Counted from the stretch's first letter, positions 27,894 to 40,528 are shown. The stretch is 64,000 bases of DNA from Escherichia phage PSD2002 (OK335775.1), one strand, 5' to 3'. Program-made: numbers and translations. Notes: generated by a model from the sequence alone, not told the origin.

Positions 27894-28193
27894 ATGATTT
27901 TAACCGAACAAGAAACTATTCGTCTCCGTGAAAAAGTCAAGACTATTTTGTCTGTTGGTTTTCACGAAGTCCTGTTTGAAAAAGCTGATGGTAGTGCCCG
28001 TCGTATGACTTGTACTCGCGACTTAGACCTGCTGCCGTATAAAGAAGTCCAGGCCCCTGGGCCAGAAGCCAATAAAGAATCTGTTAATTATATCAGAGTA
28101 TTTGATACCAAGGTTAATGATTGGCGCTCATTCCGTTTCGATAAGCTGATTTCTATTAACGGCCTTCAGACTGAAACTCTGCTTGTCCTGTAA
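27894..28193 (+). CDS. Hypothetical protein
   Basis: 99 aa ORF. Confidence 0.5.
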   Translation: MILTEQETIRLREKVKTILSVGFHEVLFEKADGSARRMTCTRDLDLLPYKEVQAPGPEANKESVNYIRVFDTKVNDWRSFRFDKLISINGLQTETLLVL

Positions 28194-28220
28194 TATGCTT
28201 TAAGAATAGCGTGTTATTAT
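28194..28220 (+). promoter_or_regulatory. Possible MotA-dependent middle promoter for gene 31
   Basis: MotA box atgcttta, 12 nt spacer, -10 tattat. Confidence 0.45.
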
Positions 28221-28251
28221 TAATCTATCAACAAAACAATATGGATTAAAT

Positions 28252-28575
28252 ATGGAACTTCCTATTAAAGCGGTCGGAGAATATGTTATTCTCGTTTCCG
28301 AACCAAAACAAGCCGGTGATGAAGAAACTACTGCATCTGGTATCGTTATTGGCAAACTTCATCAAGGTGAAATCCCTGAACTTTGTGAAATTTATTCTGT
28401 AGGACCTGATGTCCCTGAAGATTTTTGTGAAGTAGGCGATTTGACTCCACTTCCTGTTGGTAAGATTGCTAACGTGCCTCATCCGTTGGTTGCATTGGGT
28501 ATTAAACAACCTAAAGAAATTAAACAAAAATTCGTTACCTGTCACTATAAAGCTATTCCTTGCCTTTATAAGTGA
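28252..28575 (+). CDS. 31: Co-chaperonin gp31 (GroES analogue for capsid folding)
   Basis: 107 aa; [17 protein letters not shown]...VGPDVPE.FCEVGDL...[23 protein letters not shown] matches T4 gp31. Confidence 0.85.
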
Positions 28576-28721
28576 TATAAATAATAATATGGATTGGCTG
28601 CCGGACTAGTTAGTTAACCGGAGAATCCTAAGCGGTGGACTACAACTGAGAGACTTGCCGAAAGGAAGTGAAATTCAGAAGAACGTGTCCACCAATCTTT
28701 ATCTCGAATTGAGAAACTAAA

Positions 28722-28970
28722 ATGAACAAACAATTGAATCACGCTCTTGAACTGCAACGCAACGCTTGGAACAACGGTCACGAAAACTACGGCGCATCTA
28801 TTGATGTTGAGGCCGAAGCACTGGAAATCCTGCGTTATTTCAAACATCTGAATCCTGCTCAGGCTACTCTGGCTGCTGAACTGGAAGCTAAAGATGAACT
28901 GAAATTTGCTAAGCCTTTGGCTTCAGCAGCTCGTAAAGCAGTACGTCATTTTATTATTACCCTGAAGTAA
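28722..28970 (+). CDS. rIII: rIII-like lysis inhibition accessory protein
   Basis: 82 aa, same size and position (after gene 31) as T4 rIII. Confidence 0.5.
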   Translation: MNKQLNHALELQRNAWNNGHENYGASIDVEAEALEILRYFKHLNPAQATLAAELEAKDELKFAKPLASAARKAVRHFIITLK

Positions 28971-29048
28971 GTTAAATCGAGGAGCCGTCGAACTGTTTGA
29001 TTAATGATTTGCGAATCATTATAGTTTTAAGACCCCAACAGTTTTACG

Positions 29049-29077
29049 GTGTACCTCTTGAATGTATTTTGTACTAT
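29049..29077 (+). promoter_or_regulatory. T4-type early promoter upstream of a long leader
   Basis: gtgtac + 17 nt + tactat; an additional promoter-like ttga...tatagt with internal palindrome lies at 28995-29025. Confidence 0.4.
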
Positions 29078-29232
29078 CACGCGTCAGAAAAAGGTTATCT
29101 GTCTAAGTCGTGGTTGGTATGATGACGAGGTTTATGGTTATCCTGTCGTTAAATATCCTAAACCTATGTTCCCCTTGAGGGCTTGCGCAGGCAACGCCAA
29201 TAAGTCCTGCATCCTAATTTAAGAGATTTAAA

Positions 29233-29394
29233 ATGGCTAAGAAAGAAGTTAAAGTAGTTGACGGTACCTCTAAACGCGCTGGTTACAAGCGTGCGTCCAA
29301 CAAGCGTATCAATCAGGTAGTTGATAAGCTTCAAGCTCGTGCTCGTGCAGTATTGCGTGCAGATGCTGCTTGCTTTGGTAAGCCTCAGGCATAA
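29233..29394 (+). CDS. Small basic protein (53 aa), not in ORF track
   Basis: Manually translated MAKKEVKVVDGTSKRAGYKRASNKRINQVVDKLQARARAVLRADAACFGKPQA; followed directly by a strong terminator. Confidence 0.4.
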   Translation: MAKKEVKVVDGTSKRAGYKRASNKRINQVVDKLQARARAVLRADAACFGKPQA

Positions 29395-29399
29395 GTTAT

Positions 29400-29427
29400 G
29401 GGACTCCGAAGAGTCCCATTTTTGTTT
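29400..29427 (+). terminator. Rho-independent terminator
   Basis: gggactc-cgaa-gagtccc stem-loop followed by atttttgttt. Confidence 0.75.
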
Positions 29428-29446
29428 CTAAATCTTTAAAAAAATG

Positions 29447-29475
29447 GTGTACATCTCCGGTAGGCATGATACTAT
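29447..29475 (+). promoter_or_regulatory. T4-type early promoter in inverted repeat (PeSL-like), shared leader with 29889 copy
   Basis: gtgtac + 17 nt + tactat; tgtacat...atgtaca inverted repeat; downstream leader tatagac.tgtaccaaataatacgaaaacaaact repeated at 29914. Confidence 0.55.
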
Positions 29476-29516
29476 AGACATGTACCAAATAATACGAAAA
29501 CAAACTGGAGAATAAA

Positions 29517-29885
29517 ATGAAAATCAATCTTAACTCATATATCAAATGTAAAGACCACGACGGTTACAAAGCAATCGAAACTAAAGAAATGCAATGGCAC
29601 TTGTACAAAGAACAATTTGAATTTGTAGGTTGCATGACTCCGGAAGGTCCTTCTGATGACTTCTCTTGGAAAATTATGGTAACAAACTTTTTTACCGGTG
29701 ATACCTACGAACTGAAAACTATCATAACCGGTAAGATTCGTTGTAAGACCTATGAAGATGAAGAAACCGGTTATTCTGAAGATGTTACATGGTATCAAAA
29801 TGGTCGCACTACTGCTGATGAGTTGATTGAAAAAATGAAAGCCAAAGGTGAATTAAATTTAGATAATTGGATTAAAGTTGCATAA
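29517..29885 (+). CDS. Hypothetical early protein
   Basis: 122 aa ORF after early promoter. Confidence 0.5.
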   Translation: MKINLNSYIKCKDHDGYKAIETKEMQWHLYKEQFEFVGCMTPEGPSDDFSWKIMVTNFFTGDTYELKTIITGKIRCKTYEDEETGYSEDVTWYQNGRTTADELIEKMKAKGELNLDNWIKVA

Positions 29886-29888
29886 AAC

Positions 29889-29917
29889 AGTTTACTTTGG
29901 TACAGGTTGTGTTATTA
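29889..29917 (+). promoter_or_regulatory. T4-type early promoter in 9-bp inverted repeat (PeSL-like)
   Basis: gtttac + 17 nt + tattat; ggtacaggt ... acctgtacc. Confidence 0.55.
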
Positions 29918-29967
29918 TAGACCTGTACCAAATAATACGAAAACAAACTAAACCAAAGGATAATAAA

Positions 29968-30333
29968 ATGAACTACATCAACTTCGAACGTAAATATGTT
30001 TCTATCGGTGCGGTTGGTTCTAACGAATACATGTGTTTATGGGAGCATAAAAACGGTTCAGTTTGCGAAATCGACCATTGGGTTTCTCCTGATTATGTTT
30101 ATATGCGATTTGAAAATGGTATCACTCTTTCAATCACTAAAGAAGGTTCTTCTTTTAAAATAGCTTTAGATGATGATTTCCGTCAACGTGATTTAGGTAC
30201 TCATCCTTGCTGGAACGGCGTTAATCGTAAGCTTCTGGTTAAAACCTGGATTCGTCACATCCTGAGCAACCGAGCTAAACCTGAACACCTGGAAGCAATC
30301 TTTGATGTAGTTCTGAACGAATTCGATATCTAA
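29968..30333 (+). CDS. Hypothetical early protein
   Basis: 121 aa from ATG after repeated leader (track ORF start 29878 lies upstream of the promoter). Confidence 0.5.
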   Translation: MNYINFERKYVSIGAVGSNEYMCLWEHKNGSVCEIDHWVSPDYVYMRFENGITLSITKEGSSFKIALDDDFRQRDLGTHPCWNGVNRKLLVKTWIRHILSNRAKPEHLEAIFDVVLNEFDI

Positions 30334-30343
30334 TCTTAAAAAT

Positions 30344-30362
30344 GGAGGCTTCGGCCTCCTTT
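30344..30362 (+). terminator. GC hairpin with UUCG loop (terminator / processing signal)
   Basis: ggaggc-ttcg-gcctcc followed by ttt. Confidence 0.45.
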
Positions 30363-30374
30363 GAGGAAAATATT

Positions 30375-30662
30375 ATGTTTATGACCACTTATTTCGATAC
30401 TCGTAAAAATTTCTGTGAAGTTGTTTTCTCTAAAGCAGGTAAAGACGTTCCTGCCGACAAACAACCTACTCGTGAATCTATTAAGGCCTATGCTGATGTT
30501 GTATGCCCTGTAGAATTCCGTACTGTTAATGGTCGTGATACCTTAGCAATCACTAAGCTCAACCGTGATATCAATATCGACCCTAGTGCCGCCCGTGAAG
30601 TCAATACCTCTGACATCTATGGTGGTAATGTTAAATCACACGGCTTTCAGATGAGGTTCTAA
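30375..30662 (+). CDS. Hypothetical protein
   Basis: 95 aa from ATG with GAGGA RBS downstream of hairpin. Confidence 0.45.
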   Translation: MFMTTYFDTRKNFCEVVFSKAGKDVPADKQPTRESIKAYADVVCPVEFRTVNGRDTLAITKLNRDINIDPSAAREVNTSDIYGGNVKSHGFQMRF

Positions 30663-30856
30663 TGCAACTATTTTTATCGCAAACAGTCCAGTTAAAAGGC
30701 GTAGGTATTCCTGGAATGATTTCCAAGGTTCTACCTGCTTTTAAATTAGGTAATGTTATTATTAAAGAAGCCTACACCGTCTTATGGGTCGATGGAACTG
30801 AAGACGTTCGCATGGGCGGTGAACTGTCTGTAATCAAATGTTTAAAGCGAGGATAA
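30662..30856 (+). CDS. Hypothetical small protein
   Basis: 64 aa ORF. Confidence 0.4.
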   Translation: MQLFLSQTVQLKGVGIPGMISKVLPAFKLGNVIIKEAYTVLWVDGTEDVRMGGELSVIKCLKRG

Positions 30857-30857
30857 T

Positions 30858-31070
30858 ATGTTTAAGAAATTGATTCAGAAATTATTAGGTACGGAAATGG
30901 TCGAAGTGACTTATCGTGTAACTGATTTATCTCCTGTGCATCCACAAGATGAACCATATACTAAAACAATTAAAATGCTGAAATCTGACGGCGGATTATC
31001 TATTAAAGACCGTCTACCTTGTTATGGTCATTGGGCTGATGTAGAGATTATCAGTGTCAAAGATATTTAA
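30858..31070 (+). CDS. Hypothetical small protein, tandem paralogue A
   Basis: 70 aa; MFKKLIQKLLG.E.VEVTYRV.DLSP......IISVKDI shared with adjacent ORF. Confidence 0.5.
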   Translation: MFKKLIQKLLGTEMVEVTYRVTDLSPVHPQDEPYTKTIKMLKSDGGLSIKDRLPCYGHWADVEIISVKDI

Positions 31071-31079
31071 GGAGTCTTC

Positions 31080-31292
31080 ATGATTAAGAAATTATTTAAA
31101 AAGCTGTTTGGCTTGGAACTGGTTGAAGTGACTTATCGTGTTATTGATTTATCACCGCCATATGCTTGCGATGAAGATGCTATTAAAACTGTTGTTATGC
31201 GAAAAACATATCGCGGGCAGTCAATTAAAGAAAGATTGCCAGATCATGGCATGTGGTATGCAACCAAGATTATCAGTGTCAAAGATGTCTGA
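31080..31292 (+). CDS. Hypothetical small protein, tandem paralogue B
   Basis: 70 aa; about 50 percent identical to 30858..31070 with conserved termini. Confidence 0.5.
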   Translation: MIKKLFKKLFGLELVEVTYRVIDLSPPYACDEDAIKTVVMRKTYRGQSIKERLPDHGMWYATKIISVKDV

Positions 31293-31743
31293 GTTAGAAA
31301 TCAGAAGTAATTTTCCGTGGCCATCGTGTGCATTAAGTAACTTTGCTAAATGGCCTTTCGTTATGGATGGTATCCAATTTGGAGGGCTCGAAGGATTCCT
31401 CCAAGGGTGTAAGGTGAGAAATCATGAACAACAAAAACGTATATTTGGGATGTCCGGTCTGGCCGCACAACAAACTGGAAGAGCTTATGCAAGAGCTGCG
31501 GACCGTGGGACGCTTTTCTGGCTTGGAATTCCCTTTTCAAGATACTCTACATCATGGAAAGAGTTGTATACAAATGCATATTTTGAAGCAGCGCTCCAAA
31601 ACAAAGGATTCCGCGACGCATTACAAGCTACAAAGGGCAAAGTTTTAAAGCATTCGATGGCGAGTCACCTTACAGAATGTGATACAATACTAACTGAAAA
31701 AGAGTTTATCGACATCCTAAACAAATTGAGAGATTTATTATGA
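31285..31743 (+). CDS. NADAR (YbiA-like) domain protein, putative ADP-ribose/N-glycoside hydrolase
   Basis: 152 aa from ATG overlapping previous stop; LSNFAKWPF.MDG..F.G.EGFLQG.K resembles YbiA/NADAR core (SNFA.WP...DG...E..FQA.K). Confidence 0.55.
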   Translation: MSELEIRSNFPWPSCALSNFAKWPFVMDGIQFGGLEGFLQGCKVRNHEQQKRIFGMSGLAAQQTGRAYARAADRGTLFWLGIPFSRYSTSWKELYTNAYFEAALQNKGFRDALQATKGKVLKHSMASHLTECDTILTEKEFIDILNKLRDLL

Positions 31744-32378
31744 AACCAGTTATCTTAACAGATATCGATGGAGTATGTTTAAGTTGGCAGTCCGGCTTGC
31801 CTTATTTCGCACAGAAATATAATTTGCCTTTAGAACATATTTTGAATATGATTCAGGACGAACGTTTCTTATCTCCTGGTGAGCTGTTTAATTGTGATAA
31901 TGAATTAGGCGCTCGTTTAATCGAGAAGTACAATCAGTCAGATTTTATTCGTTATCTGTCTCCTTACATGGACGCATTAAAACATATCAACAAGCTCAAA
32001 AAAGACTTCGATTTTGTAGCCGTGACTGCGCTAGGCGACTCAATTGATGCACTGCTGAATAGACAATTCAATTTGAATGCTTTGTTCCCTGGCGCATTCA
32101 AGGAGATTCTGATGTGTGGTCATTCAGAATCAAAAGAAGACCTCTTCATAAGAGCTAAAAATACGTACGGTAAACGTATTAAGTTTTATGTTGATGATTT
32201 GGCTCACCACTGTGATGCTGCATCTAATGTTCTCATGGATATCCAAGTTTATTGGTTAGCTCGTGGTGAACGTGACTTTAAACCTAATTTAGCCGTAAAG
32301 GTTAATTCATGGGACGATATCGCAGCAATCGAATCCCTTCGTAATAATGCCGCAGTTGAATGGATTGCTCGAGGTTAA
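31740..32378 (+). CDS. HAD-superfamily hydrolase (putative nucleotidase/phosphatase)
   Basis: 212 aa; N-terminal ILTDIDGV (HAD motif I DxDG) and later YVDD; ATGA overlap with NADAR gene. Confidence 0.55.
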   Translation: MKPVILTDIDGVCLSWQSGLPYFAQKYNLPLEHILNMIQDERFLSPGELFNCDNELGARLIEKYNQSDFIRYLSPYMDALKHINKLKKDFDFVAVTALGDSIDALLNRQFNLNALFPGAFKEILMCGHSESKEDLFIRAKNTYGKRIKFYVDDLAHHCDAASNVLMDIQVYWLARGERDFKPNLAVKVNSWDDIAAIESLRNNAAVEWIARG

Positions 32379-32379
32379 T

Positions 32380-32658
32380 ATGTTTGTAGTTCATACAATT
32401 TCAGACTATGGTCCTACCACTACAATGGATTATGGTCATGTAAACCAGTTTATTCGTCATGTGAATCATGATTACTCATTTGATGTAAATCCGGCTAAAG
32501 ACCATCCTGTTTGGCGCGAATGCGTCGAACAGGGATTCATTTATGTCCACTTTATGTCCAAGTTCAAATCTGATGGGCGAATGAGATTTGTGTTCTCTTA
32601 TCATAAGCGATTAGACTTGCTTTTGGCTGATGTGGCTTATAATAGAATCCATGACTAA
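32380..32658 (+). CDS. Hypothetical protein
   Basis: 92 aa from first ATG after upstream stop. Confidence 0.45.
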   Translation: MFVVHTISDYGPTTTMDYGHVNQFIRHVNHDYSFDVNPAKDHPVWRECVEQGFIYVHFMSKFKSDGRMRFVFSYHKRLDLLLADVAYNRIHD

Positions 32659-32668
32659 TGAGGTGATT

Positions 32669-34195
32669 ATGATTTTAGATATTTTAAACGAAATTGCTGC
32701 TATTGATTCTACTAAAGCTAAAGAAGCCATTATTGCTCGTGAAAAGGACAATGAGCTTCTGAAACGTGTTTATCGTATGGCTTATACCCGTCGTCTGAAC
32801 TACGGTATTAAAAAGTGGCCAGAACCTGGATTTACATCTCAATCCTTTGGTATGATTACTCTTGAAGACCTTCTTGATTTCGCTGAATTCACATTAGCCA
32901 CACGTAAGATTACGGGTAATGCGGCTATTGAAGAACTGGCTCAAATCATTGCTGATGCTAAGGCCCCGGATGCCGAGGTATTACGTCGTGTAATGATGCG
33001 CGACCTTGAATGTGGTGCATCGATTTCTATTGCTAACAAGGTTTGGAAAGGTTTAATCCCTGAACAACCGCAGATGTTGGCGAGTTCTTATGATGAAGCT
33101 TTGATTAAGAAAAATATTAAATGGCCAGCGTTTGCTCAATTAAAAGCTGATGGTGCTCGTTGTTTTGCCGAAGTTCGTAACGATGGTGTGACATTCCTTA
33201 CTCGTGGTGGTAATGAATACCAAGGGCTTCATCTTTTAGCTGCTGAATTAATGGCGATGACCGAAGAAGCTCGTCAACGTCATCCTAATGGCGTTATGAT
33301 TGATGGCGAATTAGTTTACCATACTCCTAAAGTTGAACCTAAAGCATCTAATGATTTGTTTAGTATGTTTGACGAGGAACTTCCTGAATTAAGTAAAGCC
33401 AAAGAATTCCAAACTGTCGCCGATCGTTCTACGTCAAATGGATTGGCTAATAAGGCTCTTCAAGGAACTATCACCCCATCTGAAGCCGCTGGTATGGTAT
33501 TACAGGCATGGGATTATGTCCCACTGGATGTCGTGTATTCTGAAGGCAAAATTAAAGGTGATAAGTATGATGTACGCTTTACAGCCTTAGAACTTATGGT
33601 GGCTCATAATGTCGTATTGCATGGCACAACGCGTGTTGAAGCTATCGAAAACCAGTGGGTTAATAATCTTGAAGAAGCTAAAGTCGTTTATAAGAAATAT
33701 GTCGACCAAGGTCTGGAAGGTATTATCCTTAAGAACATGGACTCCTACTGGGAAAACCGCCGTTCTAAGAATCTTATCAAGTTCAAAGAAGTAATCGATA
33801 TTGCTTTAGAAGTGGTGGGTTATTATGAACACTCGAAGGACCCTAACAAACTAGGCGGTGTTGAATTAGTATCACATTGTCGTCGAATTACAAGTGACTG
33901 TGGTTCAGGCTTTAAAGATACCACCCATAAGAAAGATAAATCAGGTAAAAAAGTATTGATTCCATTGGAAGACCGTCCTGATTTAGACCGTGAACTTCTT
34001 ATGAAACAAGCTCGTGAAGGTAAGTTGATTGGACGTATTGCTGACTGTGAATGTAATGGTTGGGTTCATTCTAAAGGACGTACTGATACTGTAGGTATTT
34101 TCCTTCCAATTATTAAAGGTTGGCGTTTCGATAAAACAGAAGCTGATACATTTGAAGATGTATTCGGGTCGTGGGACCAAACAGGACTTAATTAA
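32669..34195 (+). CDS. 30: ATP-dependent DNA ligase gp30
   Basis: 508 aa from MILDILNEIA; ligase motifs (KADGAR adenylation lysine, IDGELVY, EGIILK) and overall colinearity with T4 DNA ligase. Confidence 0.9.
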   Translation: MILDILNEIAAIDSTKAKEAIIAREKDNELLKRVYRMAYTRRLNYGIKKWPEPGFTSQSFGMITLEDLLDFAEFTLATRKITGNAAIEELAQIIADAKAPDAEVLRRVMMRDLECGASISIANKVWKGLIPEQPQMLASSYDEALIKKNIKWPAFAQLKADGARCFAEVRNDGVTFLTRGGNEYQGLHLLAAELMAMTEEARQRHPNGVMIDGELVYHTPKVEPKASNDLFSMFDEELPELSKAKEFQTVADRSTSNGLANKALQGTITPSEAAGMVLQAWDYVPLDVVYSEGKIKGDKYDVRFTALELMVAHNVVLHGTTRVEAIENQWVNNLEEAKVVYKKYVDQGLEGIILKNMDSYWENRRSKNLIKFKEVIDIALEVVGYYEHSKDPNKLGGVELVSHCRRITSDCGSGFKDTTHKKDKSGKKVLIPLEDRPDLDRELLMKQAREGKLIGRIADCECNGWVHSKGRTDTVGIFLPIIKGWRFDKTEADTFEDVFGSWDQTGLN

Positions 34196-34365
34196 TGAAA
34201 GTTTATTTAGAAACAATTGTTATATCAAATACAAATATTACGGCAGTCTCTCAAATCATCCTTGATTTTGAGGACGAAATAGCTTTTGCCGATTTTAAAG
34301 ATACCTTCGATGGCTATGAAAAAGGCCCTACATTCGAAGTATATCGTACACTGTTACCACTTTAA
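34195..34365 (+). CDS. Possible small protein (56 aa), not in ORF track
   Basis: ATG overlapping ligase stop (TAATG); followed by short GC hairpin; weak RBS. Confidence 0.3.
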   Translation: MKVYLETIVISNTNITAVSQIILDFEDEIAFADFKDTFDGYEKGPTFEVYRTLLPL

Positions 34366-34382
34366 GGCCTTCGGGCCTTTTC
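34365..34382 (+). terminator. Short GC hairpin with UUCG loop
   Basis: aggcc-ttcg-ggcct followed by tttt. Confidence 0.4.
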
Positions 34383-34385
34383 TGG

Positions 34386-34393
34386 CATAAATA
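34386..34393 (+). promoter_or_regulatory. Possible late promoter (CATAAATA variant) for Alt-like operon
   Basis: cATAAATA 22 nt upstream of ATG with AAGAGGA RBS; first base deviates from TATAAATA. Confidence 0.4.
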
Positions 34394-34415
34394 AGGTTAT
34401 TAAAGAGGAATTATT

Positions 34416-36311
34416 ATGTCCGAACAATTGAATGAGGTATTTGATGGTGATATAAATTTATCTGCTGTCAATTTAAACCCTAAACTTAAAGTCCCACAGA
34501 TTTGGAATATAAAGGCTGAAGGTAACGAGAACCTTGTTGCCCGCATGGTTTCATATACTTCCGAAGGCGATGTAATTCGTCAGGTTAAGCCTGGTGACAA
34601 GTATGTTCATGTCGTTTTAATGAGCCTATCGGCTAAAGGTTCTCCTGCCGAACTCAAAGGTGGATTAGGTACCAATCCTATTTCCGCTATTCGTTCTATA
34701 TTTGATATCGTCTATGAACAGGTCAAGGCCCTTCGTATGGACGCTGTTATGTTCCGTTTTCCTACCAAGAAAATGAAAGGGCAGGAAAAAGCTATACAGA
34801 GGGTATTGGCTAAATTAATAGCCTCTAGAGCAGGCGGACAGTTTAAAGTTCTTGATGCCTTGTATCAATTCACCGGTAAGCATTCGTATGTTTTTATCTA
34901 TCGTAAAAATAAAAATATAGAATCTATAAATGGTATTCCTAATATTAATTTAGAATTGTATACTAAAGTCGAATCTGAAGTCGGTGACGTGTATGTTTCA
35001 AAGAAAACAGGCGAAGATGTTACCAAACTAGAAGCTATAGCTAAGTCCATAGACGAAATAGAAAAATCACGTTCTGATAAAACTGTTATAACCAAAACAA
35101 AGGTTTCTAAACGTGCTGCTATCAATGCTTTATATCCTACAGCAGAGCCTACAGGATTGAGTAAATTTTCGGCAGAGCACAAAAAAGCTTATGCAGATTA
35201 TTCTGCTACTAGTTCCGTTCATTCTTCTGAAGATTCTAAAGAAAGCCAAATAGCTTTAGCCAGTAATAAAATATTAAAAGACACCTCTAAAGAAATGGCA
35301 GAATATTTGGATTATATTTTTAACGGTGTTAATCCATCATTTGAAGTAGACGAGCGCAAACTTAAACTAATTGCTGATATAAAGTTTGCTTTAGAGGCAT
35401 CAGATTCTTTAGATAAATCTAATAGTGTCATAGAGGCTTTAAAATCAGGTAAATCTCATGTAGACATTCTTAGACTAGTCGCTGCGGCCCTTTTAGATGA
35501 TTCAGTTAAAGGTACTTGGGCTAGAGAATCTAAAATCAAGGAAGTAATAAAATCCTTAGTAGCAGTTTATACAAAATCTATCCAACCGTTGTTTAAGATA
35601 TCTGATAATCCTAATTTATCCAAACCTCAAGAAGAGGCAGTCAAAAAGTATACTCGTGGCGGCTACAACCATATAAACAACTTTTTGCTAGGTAAAACAG
35701 ATACCACCGATGAAATGATAAAAATGATTGGTGAGTTGGATTCTACATTTGAAAATGGTACAAAACTTCCTAAAGGAACCATAGTGTATCGTTCTCAGAT
35801 AATGCCTACCGAAATGGCTTTGAATTCTATAAAACATAAGGTGATGTATCTTCCTATTTTTGCATCAACTTCATTGGCTCCTAATATTTTCGGTGAAATG
35901 GGTCATGCTCAATCCAACTTAGACCCTGAAGCTCTTTCTAGCGATATAGATAGTAATCTTGAAGACACCATTAAAAGTGCGACCGGAAGTGCTAGAGATA
36001 CCATTAAGCTAGGGTTAATTATTAAAGGTGCTGATAAAATTAAGGTTATTGTGCCCGGTGACTTGGCTAATTGGTCTACAGAAACCGAAGTAATTCTTCC
36101 TCGTGGGGTTATGCTTAAGATTAATAAAGTATACGGTGCTTCCAAGGGACCTATGGGTTCAATTGGTAAATATGTTTTAGTGGAATGTGAAGTTGTAGCT
36201 ACCGAGCAAATCACAGAGGAAGATTCATATAGCACCGGATTCTCGTTTGGAAATTATGATAGAATTATGTATGAAGATTCTATGGAAAAATTAGCAAATT
36301 TATTTAAATAG
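34416..36311 (+). CDS. Alt-like ADP-ribosyltransferase paralogue 1 (putative injected head protein)
   Basis: 631 aa; conserved N-terminal about 230 aa shared with two downstream ORFs; LNE/VF N-terminus resembles prohead protease cleavage/capsid-targeting site; C-terminal R-S-E ART signature (VYRSQ, FASTSL, TETEVILPRG). Confidence 0.7.
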   Translation: MSEQLNEVFDGDINLSAVNLNPKLKVPQIWNIKAEGNENLVARMVSYTSEGDVIRQVKPGDKYVHVVLMSLSAKGSPAELKGGLGTNPISAIRSIFDIVYEQVKALRMDAVMFRFPTKKMKGQEKAIQRVLAKLIASRAGGQFKVLDALYQFTGKHSYVFIYRKNKNIESINGIPNINLELYTKVESEVGDVYVSKKTGEDVTKLEAIAKSIDEIEKSRSDKTVITKTKVSKRAAINALYPTAEPTGLSKFSAEHKKAYADYSATSSVHSSEDSKESQIALASNKILKDTSKEMAEYLDYIFNGVNPSFEVDERKLKLIADIKFALEASDSLDKSNSVIEALKSGKSHVDILRLVAAALLDDSVKGTWARESKIKEVIKSLVAVYTKSIQPLFKISDNPNLSKPQEEAVKKYTRGGYNHINNFLLGKTDTTDEMIKMIGELDSTFENGTKLPKGTIVYRSQIMPTEMALNSIKHKVMYLPIFASTSLAPNIFGEMGHAQSNLDPEALSSDIDSNLEDTIKSATGSARDTIKLGLIIKGADKIKVIVPGDLANWSTETEVILPRGVMLKINKVYGASKGPMGSIGKYVLVECEVVATEQITEEDSYSTGFSFGNYDRIMYEDSMEKLANLFK

Positions 36312-36319
36312 GATAGATT

Positions 36320-38401
36320 ATGACCCAATTAAATGAAGTGTTCGAGTCCGAAGGTACACTGCCTGTTGTGAACTTGAACCCAAAACTTAAAGTACCTCAG
36401 ATTTGGAAGATTGGAGACGCGGAGTCTCAGTTAGTAGCACGTATGGTATCCTACGCTTCTGAAGGTGATGCTATTAAACAAGTTAAAATGGGTGATAAAT
36501 ATGCCCACGTTATCCTTATGAGCCTTTCAGCTAAAGGTTCGCCTGCCGAACTTAAAGGCGGCTTAGGCCCTACTCCTGTAGATGCGATTAATACTATTTT
36601 TGATGTGGTTTATGACCAAGTTAAAAAGCTTCGTATGGATGCCGTGATGTTCCGTTTCCCTACTAAGAAAATGAAAGGTCAAGGCCCTATCGTTCAACGG
36701 ATTATCCAACGTTTGGTAGCACAGAAAACCGGTGGACGTTTTAAAGTGGTTCCGGCTATGTACCAATTTACCGGTAAACATACTTACATCCTGGTAGTTC
36801 GTAAACAAGCTGATATAGAAGATATCAAAGGTATGCCTGGAATTAATGCTGAATTGTATACTAAGGTAGATTCTGATGTCGGTGAAGTTTATATTTCTAA
36901 AAAAGAAGGCGTACAGGTTACTAAAGAAACTGCTATCGCCGGTAGTATTGCTAAGGTTGAAGAACGTCGCACTGATAAAATGGTTATAACCAAGACTAAG
37001 ATTTCTCGACGTGCTATTGCAGCAAGTCAATCGTTAGAATCTTATCGTAATGAAAGTGGGCTGTTTAAGAAATATGAAGCTACTGCAGTAGATTTTAATA
37101 AACCGGCAACAGTTCCATTAATCCCTGAGGCCCAGGAAATGGTCACTAATAACAATTCTCCTGCGGCTAAAAATAAGGTTGCTAATATAGTAGCTGAAGG
37201 CACTGCTGAAGAATTGCATTACGACTATAAATTGTTCCCACTTCACGGTATTGGTGAAATCCAAGAGAAAATTAAAGAGAAAATTCTTACAGCTATCAAA
37301 AATGAACCTTTGACATCTGTTAAAGCCCTGGAAAAATATGCCTCTACCATTAATACCATTTTCGAAGAATATAAAGGCGAGTGGCTGGCTATCCATAACA
37401 GAACTCGTAAAGGCCAACCTGACGACGTCTGGAATGAATTAACCGAGTCCAAGTGGAAAGCAGCCAAGACTAAGTTCATTAAAAAACGTGTGTATAGTTT
37501 TGCTGGCGTAGGTGGTGGTATTATGGTCGATATTACTATTGCTCGTGAGGGCTCTAAATATACCCCATCACAAAAGCGCGGCATCAGAGAATATTGTGGT
37601 TCAGGATATACAGACATAAATAATCTTCTTTTAGGACGTTATAATCCCCAGAACTATGAGGTTATGAGCGAAAAAGATATCGAATCTGCAGTTAATAATT
37701 TGGATTCCGCTTTTGAAAATGGCGACCGTATACCAGAAGGCATCACAGTTTATCGTGCACAGAGTATGACTGCTCCTATATACGAAGCACTAGTTAAAAA
37801 TAAAGTGTTCTATTTCAGAAATTTTGTATCTACTTCTTTAACTCCTATAATTTTCGGACGTTTTGGTGTTACACACGCTGGTATTGGTCTTTTAGAACCG
37901 GAAGTTCGCAACGAATTGACAGTTGATAAAAATGAAGAAGGAATAACTATTAATCCTAATGAAATAAGAGCGTATAAGGAAAATCCCGATTACGTTAAGG
38001 TTCAAATAGGATGGGCCATTGATGGGGCTCATAAAGTTAATGTCGTATATCCAGGAAATCTCGGAATAGCAACTGAAGCCGAAGTTATTCTACCGCGTGG
38101 ATTAATGGTCAAAGTTAATAAAATAACAGATGCTTCTAATAATGATGGAACAACATCTAGTAATACAAAACTCATCCAAGCTGAAGTTATGACAACAGAT
38201 GAGCTTCAAGAATCTGTTGTATATGATGGTGATGTACTAATGGAAACCGGCGAGTTGGTCGTATATCAAGATGACTTCGATACTTCCGAAAGCCCCTTAT
38301 CTTTTGATTCATTTGTTAAATCTACACGGTTTGATGTACTGCCTCTTTTGGCTTCATGCATAGACCTCTATGACATCCCAGAAAAATTCATCCAAGGGTA
38401 A
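36320..38401 (+). CDS. Alt-like ADP-ribosyltransferase paralogue 2
   Basis: 693 aa; same N-terminal module; ART signature VYRAQ, FVSTSL, TEAEVILPRG. Confidence 0.7.
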   Translation: MTQLNEVFESEGTLPVVNLNPKLKVPQIWKIGDAESQLVARMVSYASEGDAIKQVKMGDKYAHVILMSLSAKGSPAELKGGLGPTPVDAINTIFDVVYDQVKKLRMDAVMFRFPTKKMKGQGPIVQRIIQRLVAQKTGGRFKVVPAMYQFTGKHTYILVVRKQADIEDIKGMPGINAELYTKVDSDVGEVYISKKEGVQVTKETAIAGSIAKVEERRTDKMVITKTKISRRAIAASQSLESYRNESGLFKKYEATAVDFNKPATVPLIPEAQEMVTNNNSPAAKNKVANIVAEGTAEELHYDYKLFPLHGIGEIQEKIKEKILTAIKNEPLTSVKALEKYASTINTIFEEYKGEWLAIHNRTRKGQPDDVWNELTESKWKAAKTKFIKKRVYSFAGVGGGIMVDITIAREGSKYTPSQKRGIREYCGSGYTDINNLLLGRYNPQNYEVMSEKDIESAVNNLDSAFENGDRIPEGITVYRAQSMTAPIYEALVKNKVFYFRNFVSTSLTPIIFGRFGVTHAGIGLLEPEVRNELTVDKNEEGITINPNEIRAYKENPDYVKVQIGWAIDGAHKVNVVYPGNLGIATEAEVILPRGLMVKVNKITDASNNDGTTSSNTKLIQAEVMTTDELQESVVYDGDVLMETGELVVYQDDFDTSESPLSFDSFVKSTRFDVLPLLASCIDLYDIPEKFIQG

Positions 38402-38404
38402 ATA

Positions 38405-40528
38405 ATGGAAAATTTAAATGAGGTTTTTGATAGTGATTCCGCTAAAAACTATCCAGTAACAAATCTTAAACCGGGTTCCGGTATTCCACAGATTTTCTCT
38501 ATCCAAGCACCAGGTAATGATAATCTGGTTGCTCGTATGGTATCTTATGCGTCTCAAGGAGACGCTATTAAAATGGTTAAGCCGGGCGACAAATATGTTC
38601 ATGTTATCTTAATGAGTTTATCTGCTAAAGGCGCTCCGGCAGAACTCAAGGGTGGTTTGGGTACCGATCCACTCGGTACACTGAACACCATTTTCGATAC
38701 CATATATGAACAAATAAACAAACTTAAAATGGACGCGGTTTTGTTCCGTTTCCCTACTAAGAAAATGAAAGGTAAAGGTCCTACCGTTCAGCGCGTATTA
38801 GCTCGCTTGGCTATGGCTCGTACCGGTGGTAAGTTTAAAGTTGTTGACGACATGTTCCAATTCAGCGGAAAACATACCTACGTTCTTTTAGTACGTCGTG
38901 GTGCTAGTATTGAAGATATCAAGGGTATGCCTGAAATTAATGCCGATCTTTATACTAAAGTTGAGTCTAAAGTTGGCGAAGTGTATGTTTCTAAGAAAAC
39001 CGGCCAGGCTGTAAGTAAGGTCGAAGCCGTAGCGGCATCTATTGCACAAGTTGAAGAGAAACGTACTGATAAGGCTGTCATTACTCGTACTAAGATTTCG
39101 CGTCGTATGGCAGCGGCGGCGCAGTATTCTACTGCTGAGCCTGAAACTTTGTCCTCTAAAGAATTGCAGGTTTATAACGAGTTTGAAGCTTCTGTACCGG
39201 TTCACACGGCTGAAGGCCCTGAGAACGAAGGTATTGAACAGATTAGTCAGAACTTTAAAAAAGGTGCCATTACTAAAATGCGTCAGGCTTCTCAGTTTAA
39301 ATCTAAGAGCGAGGACCTTGCCAACTTTAGATACACTATTGCTCTCACACACGCTTTAATGACTGATAGTAAATTTAAACTAAATTATGCTAATAGAGAT
39401 AAACAAGGGTTTGAAATTTACTCTAATAATATGGCATTTTTTAATACAGAAGTCGATAGACTTTTAAGTGGCCTTTCGCAAATCAATACAACCAATAGTC
39501 TGGATATTATTAAGAAAATTGTTAATAACCTGAGTACCCGTTTTAAGGGTTCCCCTTCAGAGAAAGCATCTAGAATTGCTTTCGCTATGGAAGCCGTTTA
39601 TAAACTGGTTAACGATTCTATTAGTGATGCATATGCTTATTCAGGCGAGCTCATTAAACCTAAGGACCTAACCAAAGATGAAAGCAATGCTATTATTGAA
39701 TATTGCGCGGCTGAATATGCTCCTATGAACTTATTCCTTTTAGGTAAACCTGAATCCGAAAACAATACAACGGCTATTAAATTGATTAAGGATTTAGACT
39801 CAGCATTTACTAAGGGTATTAAACTTCCTAAGGGTACTATTTTGTATCGTGGTCAGGATTTGCCATACAAAATTCTGCGCCATAATATCGATAACAAAAC
39901 ATTTTACTTTAAGAACTTTGTGTCAGCCTCATTAAAGCCTAACATCTTTGGTGAATTCGGTAAAAATTATATGGCCCTCGACAACCAAGCCGTTTTTGTT
40001 GGTGGTGAAGGTTCTTTGTCCTCCGCTGATGAGTTGTTTAAATTGGCTAGTGGTAGTTCATCTGATGTGGGTGAAGTCGATGACGAAGAGGTAGAATGGG
40101 AAGAAGACGAGTTTGGTAATCCAATTGCACCTGAAGGTCCTGCAGATAGAATTGCTGAAATTGGTATGGTTATTCGAGGTGCTGAAGCAGTTAAAGTTAT
40201 CGCTCCTGGTGACCTTACAGAATATGCCGAAGAAGCAGAAATTATCCTTCCGCGTGGATTATTGTTGAAGGTTGATAAAGTAGCGGCTTTTGCCATGAAT
40301 GATAGAGTATCTCACAAATACCTTATGGAAGCTACCGTAACGCCTCCTTCAGAGCTCAGCGAATCTGTTTACGATGGTGACCATTTGATGGAAACTGGTG
40401 AAGTTCGCCTGATGGATGGATTTAGTCAATTCTTGGTTAATGAATCCGTTTCTGAAAGCAACGAAGCTATGGAAATCCTTGCCGCGTCTTTGGATATCTC
40501 TTCTTTATCAAATAAATTCAAAATGTAG
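38405..40528 (+). CDS. Alt-like ADP-ribosyltransferase paralogue 3 (variant STS motif)
   Basis: 707 aa; same N-terminal module; ART signature LYRGQ, FVSASL, EEAEIILPRG; extra acidic insert (DDEEVEWEEDE). Confidence 0.65.
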   Translation: MENLNEVFDSDSAKNYPVTNLKPGSGIPQIFSIQAPGNDNLVARMVSYASQGDAIKMVKPGDKYVHVILMSLSAKGAPAELKGGLGTDPLGTLNTIFDTIYEQINKLKMDAVLFRFPTKKMKGKGPTVQRVLARLAMARTGGKFKVVDDMFQFSGKHTYVLLVRRGASIEDIKGMPEINADLYTKVESKVGEVYVSKKTGQAVSKVEAVAASIAQVEEKRTDKAVITRTKISRRMAAAAQYSTAEPETLSSKELQVYNEFEASVPVHTAEGPENEGIEQISQNFKKGAITKMRQASQFKSKSEDLANFRYTIALTHALMTDSKFKLNYANRDKQGFEIYSNNMAFFNTEVDRLLSGLSQINTTNSLDIIKKIVNNLSTRFKGSPSEKASRIAFAMEAVYKLVNDSISDAYAYSGELIKPKDLTKDESNAIIEYCAAEYAPMNLFLLGKPESENNTTAIKLIKDLDSAFTKGIKLPKGTILYRGQDLPYKILRHNIDNKTFYFKNFVSASLKPNIFGEFGKNYMALDNQAVFVGGEGSLSSADELFKLASGSSSDVGEVDDEEVEWEEDEFGNPIAPEGPADRIAEIGMVIRGAEAVKVIAPGDLTEYAEEAEIILPRGLLLKVDKVAAFAMNDRVSHKYLMEATVTPPSELSESVYDGDHLMETGEVRLMDGFSQFLVNESVSESNEAMEILAASLDISSLSNKFKM

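What the first reader, a model, noticed from the sequence alone, without database searches (positions are those of the whole stretch)
31285..32378. NADAR-like and HAD-like genes immediately upstream of ligase and the ADP-ribosyltransferase array
The ORF at 31285..31743 carries a YbiA/NADAR-like core (LSNFAKWPF.MDG...EGFLQG.K), a family implicated in ADP-ribose/N-glycoside hydrolysis. It overlaps by ATGA with a HAD-type hydrolase (DxDG motif ILTDIDGV). Together with the three ART genes about 2.7 kb downstream, this makes a local cluster of ADP-ribosylation writers and a candidate eraser. One possibility is that the NADAR protein reverses ADP-ribosylation imposed by host defence toxins or controls the phage's own ARTs.
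Basis: inference. Interest (0 to 1): 0.65.

Follow-up and report, generated by a model that had tools for sequence, protein, structure and literature searches.

The report
Known phage anti-DarT enzyme AdfN plus phosphatase
The two genes are this T4-like phage's copies of T4 genes 30.3 and 30.2: the first is AdfN, an already characterised enzyme that strips ADP-ribose off phage DNA to defeat the bacterial DarTG1 defence, and the second is an uncharacterised HAD phosphatase whose constant partner is the DNA ligase gene, so the finding is correct but ordinary.

Summary
The window is a T4-like Dhakavirus, 98-99% identical to phages LHE83 and WG01, and its gene order matches T4: 30.4, 30.3, 30.2, 30.1, ligase, alt.1, alt.

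ORF 31285..31743 is the orthologue of T4 gp30.3. It matches PF08010 at E 3.6e-64 and is 86% identical to T4 gp30.3 over all 152 residues. gp30.3 was renamed AdfN in 2025, when it was shown to be a NADAR-fold DNA guanine ADP-ribosylglycohydrolase that counters DarTG1. The window copy keeps catalytic E36 and K43, the phage-type H123 and the C-terminal helix. Its model matches only the three solved NADAR structures.

ORF 31740..32378 overlaps it by ATGA. It is the gp30.2 orthologue, with all four HAD motifs intact, a C1-capped HAD fold and profile links to NT5C-type deoxyribonucleotidases. Its substrate is unknown.

Comparative loci do not support a writer/eraser module:
- The HAD gene lies just upstream of the ligase in 68 of 68 loci.
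- NADAR is nearby in only 33 of 68.
- Ten genomes carry NADAR 40-65 kb from the HAD.
- Alt follows the ligase whether or not NADAR is present.

One speculative lead remains: gp30.2 could be the unidentified T-even factor AdfN needs.

The parts
31285..31743 (+). adfN, the orthologue of T4 gene 30.3: a 152-aa NADAR-fold DNA guanine ADP-ribosylglycohydrolase that counters DarT1
   Evidence: PF08010 E 3.6e-64. 86% identical to T4 gp30.3 over 152/152 residues with no gaps. E36, K43 and H123 are invariant in 41 homologues. AF2 pLDDT 94, and the top three PDB folds are YbiA 2b3w, PnNADAR 8bau and G. lovleyi NADAR 8bat. Function of the T4 orthologue is shown in PMC11825919.
31740..31743 (+). ATGA stop/start overlap between adfN and the HAD gene (translational coupling)
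   Evidence: Read directly from the sequence. The same 4-nt overlap is present in T4.
31740..32378 (+). Orthologue of T4 gene 30.2: a 212-aa HAD-superfamily phosphatase with a C1 cap, NT5C-like, substrate unknown. It lacks the roughly 85-aa C-terminal tail of T4 gp30.2.
32380..32658 (+). Gene 30.1 orthologue (DUF3045), starting 1 nt after the stop codon of 30.2
   Evidence: PF11243 E 5.9e-16. WG01 and T4 annotations.
32669..34195 (+). ATP-dependent DNA ligase (gene 30), the invariant downstream neighbour of the HAD gene
   Evidence: PF01068 E 2.2e-23 and phrog_114 E 1.3e-158. A ligase homologue lies 0.5-1.9 kb downstream of the HAD gene, on the same strand, in 68/68 loci.
34195..34365 (+). alt.1-like small ORF
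   Evidence: Position and annotation in T4 and WG01.
34416..40528 (+). Three tandem Alt-like ADP-ribosyltransferase genes (34416..36311, 36320..38401, 38405..40528)
   Evidence: PF03496 in all three. phrog_802 E 2.4e-205 for the first. WG01 annotation.
30858..31292 (+). Two tandem 30.4-like paralogues (30858..31070 and 31080..31292). The second overlaps the adfN start by 8 nt.
   Evidence: phrog_2042 E 2.4e-34 and 4.1e-26. Sequence. The same 8-nt overlap occurs in T4.

Best explanation
The region is the conserved early-gene block 30.4-30.3-30.2-30.1-30-alt.1-alt of a T4-like Dhakavirus.

ORF 31285..31743 is adfN (T4 gene 30.3), a stand-alone NADAR enzyme. By orthology with T4 AdfN, it hydrolyses the N-glycosidic bond between ADP-ribose and guanine in phage DNA that the host toxin DarT1 has modified. 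This restores a replicable template and lets the phage grow on DarTG1-carrying hosts. Catalysis uses the conserved Glu36 and Lys43 plus the phage-specific His123, and the C-terminal helix is needed for full activity.

ORF 31740..32378 is the orthologue of T4 gene 30.2. It is an Mg-dependent HAD phosphomonoesterase of the capped, small-molecule type, and its nearest relatives are NT5C 5'(3')-deoxyribonucleotidases. Its evolutionarily constant partner is the DNA ligase gene, not adfN. It most likely acts on a nucleotide-like small substrate in phage DNA or nucleotide metabolism, independently of ADP-ribosylation.

Shown here: identity, fold, catalytic residues and synteny. Shown by others, for the T4 orthologue: guanine de-ADP-ribosylation and the anti-DarTG1 phenotype. 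Inferred: that the window copy does the same, and the substrate class of the HAD enzyme.
For: The window is 98.7% identical to phage LHE83 and 98.0% to phage WG01 across this block, and its gene order is identical to T4.

AdfN:
- PF08010 at E 3.6e-64.
- 86% identity to T4 gp30.3, full length, no gaps, with E36 and K43 retained.
- E36, K43 and H123 are invariant across 41 homologues.
- The family profile hits YbiA 2b3w at E 0.0025.
- The AF2 model (pLDDT 94) matches only the three NADAR structures with probability 0.99 or higher.
- Two homologues carry both PF08010 and PF08719 hits.
- Literature: T4 gp30.3 (AdfN) removes ADP-ribose from DarT1-modified DNA in vitro. E36A and K43A impair it, deletion sensitises T4 to DarTG1, and RB69's 15-residue truncation inactivates it (PMC11825919). 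It is guanine-specific in vitro, and His replaces the catalytic Glu (PMC11125620; PMC11543638).

HAD:
- Motifs I-IV are invariant.
- pLDDT 94, with HAD-only structural neighbours.
- There is a bridge to NT5C.
- The ligase is adjacent in 68/68 loci, against NADAR nearby in 33/68.
Confidence: 0.85

Rival explanations
1. Writer/eraser module. In this reading the NADAR reverses or tunes ADP-ribosylation written by the phage's own three Alt enzymes, and the gene cluster exists for that purpose.
For: The NADAR gene and the three Alt genes lie within about 3 kb on the same strand. [quoted passage not shown]
Against: Alt-like genes follow the ligase in most of the 35 loci that have no NADAR nearby. 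About eight loci have NADAR near the HAD gene but no Alt within 8 kb. Only 14 of 80 NADAR loci have Alt within 4 kb. Ten T4-like genomes carry NADAR 40-65 kb away from the ligase/alt region. Alt modifies arginine in proteins (established knowledge of T4 Alt), whereas the demonstrated NADAR activity is on guanine-ADP-ribose in DNA. The adfN deletion phenotype in T4 is explained by DarTG1 sensitivity.
Confidence: 0.04
2. The HAD protein gp30.2 is the unidentified T-even-encoded factor that AdfN needs for full activity. It might act as a binding partner or stabiliser, or by processing a phosphorylated product or substrate of the de-ADP-ribosylation reaction.
For: AdfN of T4 works fully only during Tevenvirinae infection, and the authors postulate an unknown phage factor. 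adfN and 30.2 are translationally coupled by ATGA here and in T4. Every member of the NADAR clade that contains T4-type and Acinetobacter-phage-type proteins sits next to the HAD gene. RB69, the background in which AdfN supplied in trans works, keeps an intact 30.2. No paper in the searched library mentions gp30.2.
Against: More than a hundred other T-even genes fit the same criteria. The HAD gene is conserved next to the ligase in 35 loci that lack a neighbouring NADAR. The other large NADAR clade functions at unrelated genomic sites without it. NADAR hydrolysis yields free ADP-ribose and intact guanine, so no phosphatase step is chemically required. Purified AdfN is active alone in vitro. 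Synteny in T4-like genomes is conserved in general, so adjacency carries little weight as evidence.
Confidence: 0.07
3. The phage NADAR mainly degrades soluble ADP-ribose-derived signals or toxins, such as cADPR-type immune messengers or RNA-repair by-products, rather than DNA adducts.
For: This was proposed on contextual grounds for phage Macro and NADAR domains (PMC9503650). It could explain why AdfN does not rescue DarT1 toxicity in uninfected cells.
Against: There is direct in vitro removal of ADP-ribose from DarT1-modified DNA, and genetic necessity and sufficiency for DarTG1 resistance in T-even phages. No small-molecule substrate has been shown.
Confidence: 0.05

Closest known systems
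T4 gp30.3 = AdfN (anti-DarT factor NADAR), Pfam PF08010
   Same: It has the same length (152 aa) and 86% identity. It occupies the same genomic slot between 30.4 and 30.2, with the same 8-nt and 4-nt overlaps. It keeps the same E36/K43/H123 residues and an intact C-terminal helix.
   Different: It has 22 substitutions and sits in a Dhakavirus rather than a Tequatrovirus. Nothing suggests a functional change.
DarG1 / DarT1-associated NADAR antitoxins (BC4488 family; G. lovleyi NADAR 8bat, E. coli C7 NADAR)
   Same: They share the NADAR fold (Foldseek probability 0.99), the catalytic Glu and Lys, and guanine de-ADP-ribosylation chemistry.
   Different: The phage protein lacks the N-terminal extension. 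It has His where the DarG1 family has Asp. It is an orphan, with no DarT partner gene. [quoted passage not shown]
E. coli YbiA (2b3w; riboflavin-intermediate N-glycosidase)
   Same: It is the best structural and sequence match in the PDB (Foldseek E 3.4e-5, TM 0.67; profile E 0.0025).
   Different: Identity is only 18%. YbiA has Glu rather than His in the last strand and a housekeeping role. The window protein does not reach TIGR02464 (13 bits against 73.7).
T4 gp30.2 (uncharacterised)
   Same: It is 74% identical over the HAD domain and lies in the same position between 30.3 and 30.1.
   Different: The window protein is 212 aa against 278 aa. It lacks the aromatic/Pro-rich C-terminal tail found in Tequatrovirus and Mosigvirus versions.
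NT5C family 5'(3')-deoxyribonucleotidases (PF06941; cdN/mdN 2jao, 1mh9; 3bwv)
   Same: They share the capped HAD fold, the DxDGV motif, and an aromatic residue (W16) aligned with the Phe that follows motif I in cdN. Half of the remote homologues of gp30.2 match PF06941, and the family profile aligns full-length to 3bwv at E 1e-5.
   Different: The window protein itself is below the Pfam threshold, with about 15-18% identity. Activity and substrate are untested.

Membership tests
Phage NADAR / gp30.3 / AdfN (PF08010) | Profile match above the curated threshold | tested here: met
   215.1 bits against a cut-off of 36, E 3.6e-64, covering profile positions 2-138 of 138.
Phage NADAR / gp30.3 / AdfN (PF08010) | Orthology to the characterised T4 protein (full-length similarity and conserved genomic position) | tested here: met
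   86% identity over 152/152 residues with no gaps. It lies between 30.4 and 30.2, as in T4.
NADAR superfamily | YbiA-type alpha+beta fold | tested here: met
   AF2 pLDDT 94.1. The only Foldseek PDB hits with probability 0.99 or higher are 2b3w, 8bau and 8bat, all NADARs.
NADAR superfamily | Catalytic Glu and Lys (E36 and K43 in T4 AdfN; E88 and K95 in E. coli C7 NADAR) | tested here: met
   LEGFLQGCK gives E36 and K43, which are invariant in 41 homologues. Their roles come from PMC11825919 and PMC11543638.
Phage NADAR / gp30.3 / AdfN (PF08010) | His in the last strand in place of the YbiA Glu or DarG1 Asp | tested here: met
   H123 follows strand 120-122 and is invariant. The feature is described in PMC11125620.
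Phage NADAR / gp30.3 / AdfN (PF08010) | Intact C-terminal helix (lost in the inactive RB69 allele) | tested here: met
   The protein is 152 aa with helix 138-151. RB69 30.3 is 137 aa.
Phage NADAR / gp30.3 / AdfN (PF08010) | Guanine-ADP-ribose DNA glycohydrolase activity and resistance to DarTG1 | not testable with these tools
   Shown only for the T4 protein.
HAD superfamily phosphatase | Motif I DxDx(T/V), motif II S/T, motif III K, motif IV DD | tested here: met
   D8-I-D10-G-V12, T96, K132 and D152-D153. All are invariant or nearly so in 38 homologues, and D8, D10, K132 and D153 remain invariant in 53 remote ones.
HAD superfamily phosphatase | Rossmannoid core with a C1 helical cap inserted after motif I | tested here: met
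NT5C 5'(3')-deoxyribonucleotidase family (PF06941) | Profile match above the curated threshold | tested here: not met
   13.4 bits against a cut-off of 24.8, E 0.074. The link is indirect only: 26 of 53 remote homologues match at E 0.01 or below, and the family profile hits 3bwv at E 1e-5.
NT5C 5'(3')-deoxyribonucleotidase family (PF06941) | dNMP phosphatase activity | not testable with these tools
No paper in the searched library mentions gp30.2.
ADP-ribosylation writer/eraser gene module (NADAR functionally linked to Alt) | Linkage of NADAR with the ART genes conserved beyond shared ancestry of gene order | tested here: not met
   Alt is within 4 kb in 14 of 80 NADAR loci. Alt follows the ligase in most loci lacking NADAR, and 10 genomes have NADAR 40-65 kb away.
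DarTG toxin-antitoxin system | Adjacent DarT toxin gene | tested here: not met
   The neighbours are 30.4-like ORFs, the HAD gene, DUF3045 and the ligase. This matches the published description of AdfN as an orphan antitoxin-like gene.

The most novel reading that the evidence does not exclude
The translationally coupled HAD phosphatase gp30.2 is the unidentified T-even factor that AdfN requires to work in cells. The pair adfN-30.2 would then be a two-component anti-DarT module. This would explain why AdfN alone cannot rescue uninfected cells or non-T-even phages.
Probability: 0.07. Interest if true: 0.55.

Novelty: already known. Interest (0 to 1): 0.15.

Why it matters
For the NADAR gene there is nothing new. 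It is a close orthologue of a counter-defence enzyme published in 2024-2025, in a phage nearly identical to sequenced isolates. It is useful as an annotation, since public records still call both genes hypothetical.

Two points have modest residual value. First, gp30.2 is a widespread, catalytically intact HAD phosphatase that has never been studied and is tied to the T4-type DNA ligase gene in every locus examined. The family has 1272 cluster representatives at 50% identity with E up to 0.001. Second, it is a cheap, testable candidate for the missing AdfN cofactor.

Tried and rejected
- Direct single-sequence searches gave only weak NADAR signals: TIGR02464 at E 0.093 and YbiA by phmmer at E 1.2. 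They were firmed up with a family profile (E 0.0025) and with structure.
- The HAD protein alone matched nothing significant in Pfam or the PDB, and the first family profile reached only E 0.065. It took 1.8-billion-protein profile search hits to bridge to NT5C.
- Longer relatives with extra sequence carried no informative extra domains. The exception was one 30.2-30.1 fusion.
- Clustering of all ORFs within 4 kb of NADAR in 80 loci found no recurrent neighbour beyond T4 synteny.
- The promoter and terminator scan was not above shuffled expectation for promoters and gave nothing inside the two genes worth interpreting.
- Rfam found nothing in 28000-36000.
- The short minus-strand ORFs inside the region were not tested. 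I treat them as not coding because they lie antisense within genes that have strong family matches.

Full report
**What is there.** ORF 31285..31743 (+, 152 aa) and ORF 31740..32378 (+, 212 aa) exist as described and overlap by ATGA. Three Alt-type ADP-ribosyltransferase genes begin 2.7 kb downstream (PF03496 in all three). The region between them holds a DUF3045 gene (32380..32658), the ATP-dependent DNA ligase (most likely 32669..34195) and a small alt.1-like ORF.

**Source of the window.** The block 30300-34300 is 98.7% identical to Escherichia phage LHE83 and 98.0% identical to WG01, a Dhakavirus of the Tevenvirinae. The gene order is the T4 order: rIII, 30.9 to 30.4, 30.3, 30.2, 30.1, 30 (ligase), alt.1, alt, alt.-3, 54. 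There are two differences: gene 30.4 is duplicated, and alt is triplicated. T4 has the same 4-nt overlap between 30.3 and 30.2 and the same 8-nt overlap between 30.4 and 30.3.

**The 152-aa protein.**
- It matches Pfam PF08010 (bacteriophage protein gp30.3) at E 3.6e-64.
- It is 86% identical to T4 gp30.3 over all 152 residues without gaps.
- Single-sequence links to cellular NADARs are weak: TIGR02464 at E 0.093 and YbiA 2b3w at E 1.2. A profile of 41 homologues reaches YbiA at E 0.0025.
- Two homologues carry both PF08010 and PF08719 hits.
- An AlphaFold2 model has pLDDT 94.1. With Foldseek probability of 0.99 or more it matches exactly three PDB entries: YbiA 2b3w, Phytophthora NADAR 8bau and Geobacter lovleyi NADAR 8bat.
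- E36, K43 and H123 are invariant in the family alignment.

**What is already published.** Johannesman et al. (Nat Commun 2025, PMC11825919) renamed T4 gene 30.3 adfN. They showed the following:
- It is necessary for T4 resistance to DarTG1, and it suffices in trans to rescue RB69.
- It does not bind DarT1.
- Purified protein removes ADP-ribose from DarT1-modified DNA.
- E36A and K43A impair it.
- The natural RB69 allele, truncated by 15 residues, is defective.

Cihlova et al. (PMC11125620) showed guanine-specific de-ADP-ribosylation by the T4 protein in vitro. They also noted that phage NADARs carry His where YbiA has Glu and DarG1-type NADARs have Asp, as Schuller et al. had before them (PMC11543638). 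The window protein has all of these features, including the full C-terminal helix (residues 138-151). RB69's copy is 137 aa. The NADAR assignment and the anti-host-toxin reading are therefore correct and already known.

**The 212-aa protein.**
- It is the orthologue of T4 gp30.2: 74% identity over 194 aa. T4 has about 85 further residues of C-terminal tail that are absent here.
- It matches phrog_420 (unknown function) and no Pfam family above threshold.
- In 38 homologues from T4-like phages of many hosts, all four HAD motifs are conserved. D8, D10 and G11 (motif I), K132 (motif III) and D152-D153 (motif IV) are invariant, and T96 (motif II) is nearly so.
- The AlphaFold2 model has pLDDT 94.0. 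It shows a Rossmannoid core with a helical C1 cap inserted after motif I.
- A profile search of 1.84 billion representatives found 1272 relatives at E up to 0.001.
- Of 53 remote relatives scanned, 26 match PF06941 NT5C (best E 4.2e-10). Their profile aligns full-length to the putative 5'(3')-deoxyribonucleotidase 3bwv at E 1e-5 and to mitochondrial deoxyribonucleotidase at E 0.004.
- The protein is therefore a catalytically intact, capped HAD phosphatase nearest to the NT5C nucleotidases. The window protein itself fails the Pfam NT5C cut-off, and the substrate is unknown.
- A full-text search found no paper mentioning gp30.2.

**Is there a functional cluster?** I fetched 80 viral loci encoding NADAR relatives and 68 encoding gp30.2 relatives, then scanned them with profiles of both families and with the window's ligase, 30.1 and Alt proteins.
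- The HAD gene is followed by a ligase homologue 0.5-1.9 kb downstream on the same strand in 68 of 68 loci.
- NADAR lies within 8 kb upstream of the HAD gene in 33 of 68 loci.
- In 61 of 80 NADAR loci no gp30.2-type HAD lies within 8 kb. One of these is cut off by a contig end.
- Ten T4-like genomes carry both genes 40-65 kb apart. An example is contig 2974736276, with NADAR near 65 kb and the HAD gene near 134 kb.
- Alt follows the ligase in most loci without NADAR, and several loci with NADAR lack Alt.
- Clustering all neighbours of NADAR found nothing recurrent beyond T4 synteny.
- A neighbour-joining tree splits the NADARs into two groups. One clade (T4-type, Acinetobacter-phage-type and a few others) is adjacent to the HAD gene, or within about 1.2 kb upstream of it in two lineages. 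A larger clade sits elsewhere in the genome or 0.4-1 kb upstream of the HAD gene.

The stable unit is therefore HAD-ligase. The NADAR-HAD and NADAR-Alt proximities are lineage-specific inherited gene order. The co-location of NADARs and ARTs in T4-like early regions had already been remarked on (PMC9503650).

**Mechanism.**
- AdfN: the host toxin DarT1 ADP-ribosylates guanine in phage DNA and blocks replication. AdfN hydrolyses the guanine-ribose bond, releasing ADP-ribose and restoring the base. This is shown for T4 and inferred here.
- gp30.2: a Mg-dependent phosphoaspartyl-transfer phosphatase acting on a small, probably nucleotide-like substrate. Its role is tied to the ligase or to nucleotide metabolism. 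All of this is inference.
- The idea that the NADAR controls the phage's own Alt enzymes has no support. The chemistries differ (protein arginine against DNA guanine), and the genes do not co-vary.

**Residual lead.** AdfN of T4 works fully only during T-even infection, and an unknown phage factor is postulated. gp30.2 is translationally coupled to adfN, is intact in RB69 and is always adjacent within the T4-type NADAR clade. That makes it a candidate, but more than a hundred T-even genes fit equally well. AdfN is also active alone in vitro, and no phosphatase step is chemically needed. I put this at about 7%.

**Verdict.** The feature is already known, and interest is low.

Noticed in passing
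L083:7531-8021 (IMGVR_UViG_2974741249, a 155-kb contig, presumably a Dhakavirus from its 100%-identical gp30.2): A close relative carries an in-frame deletion of about 34 codons in adfN (roughly residues 9-42). It removes the LSNF motif and catalytic E36 and leaves MSELEIRS-IKVKNHEQQ. This looks like a natural AdfN-null allele, analogous to RB69's frameshift (RB69 30.3 is 137 aa). Phage UGJNEcP4 also has only a 91-aa fragment called (P0135).
   Followed up: partly
window 31424..31648 (+): A 74-aa ORF lies in the +1 frame inside adfN. It corresponds to T4's annotated gene 30.3' (internal translation in a different frame). An ORF of 70 aa or more is kept here only in close relatives (10 of 80 NADAR loci), so conservation gives no independent support for coding.
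   Followed up: partly
window 30858..31070 and 31080..31292 (+): Two tandem 70-aa paralogues of T4 gene 30.4 (phrog_2042, unknown function) sit immediately upstream of adfN. The second overlaps the adfN start by 8 nt. T4 has one copy.
   Followed up: no
window 34416..40528 (+): The alt gene is triplicated (631, 693 and 707 aa). The N-terminal regions are conserved, and the middle and C-terminal regions are divergent. T4 has one full alt plus remnants (alt.-1, alt.-2). Other T4-like loci carry one to three copies.
   Followed up: no
window 31740..32378 compared with L001:6475-7311 (T4 30.2): gp30.2 of T4, Mosigvirus and many others carries a 65-130 aa aromatic/Pro-rich C-terminal tail of variable sequence. 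The tail is missing in the window protein and in many short (about 200-220 aa) homologues. One metagenomic protein (P0012, 302 aa) fuses the HAD domain to the DUF3045 domain of gene 30.1.
   Followed up: partly
L083-L150 (68 viral loci with gp30.2 homologues): The gp30.2-type HAD gene is immediately upstream of the T4-type ATP-dependent DNA ligase gene in every one of the 68 loci, across phages of Escherichia, Acinetobacter, Aeromonas, Vibrio, Erwinia and others. I found no mention of this linkage in the papers searched.
   Followed up: yes
window 29398..29419 (+): A strong terminator-like hairpin (9-bp stem, 5 G-C pairs, T-rich tail) lies after the 53-aa ORF 29233..29394. That ORF is annotated in phage WG01 as gp30.9. 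From the hairpin through the ligase the genes are tightly packed or overlapping, which is consistent with one transcription unit.
   Followed up: no
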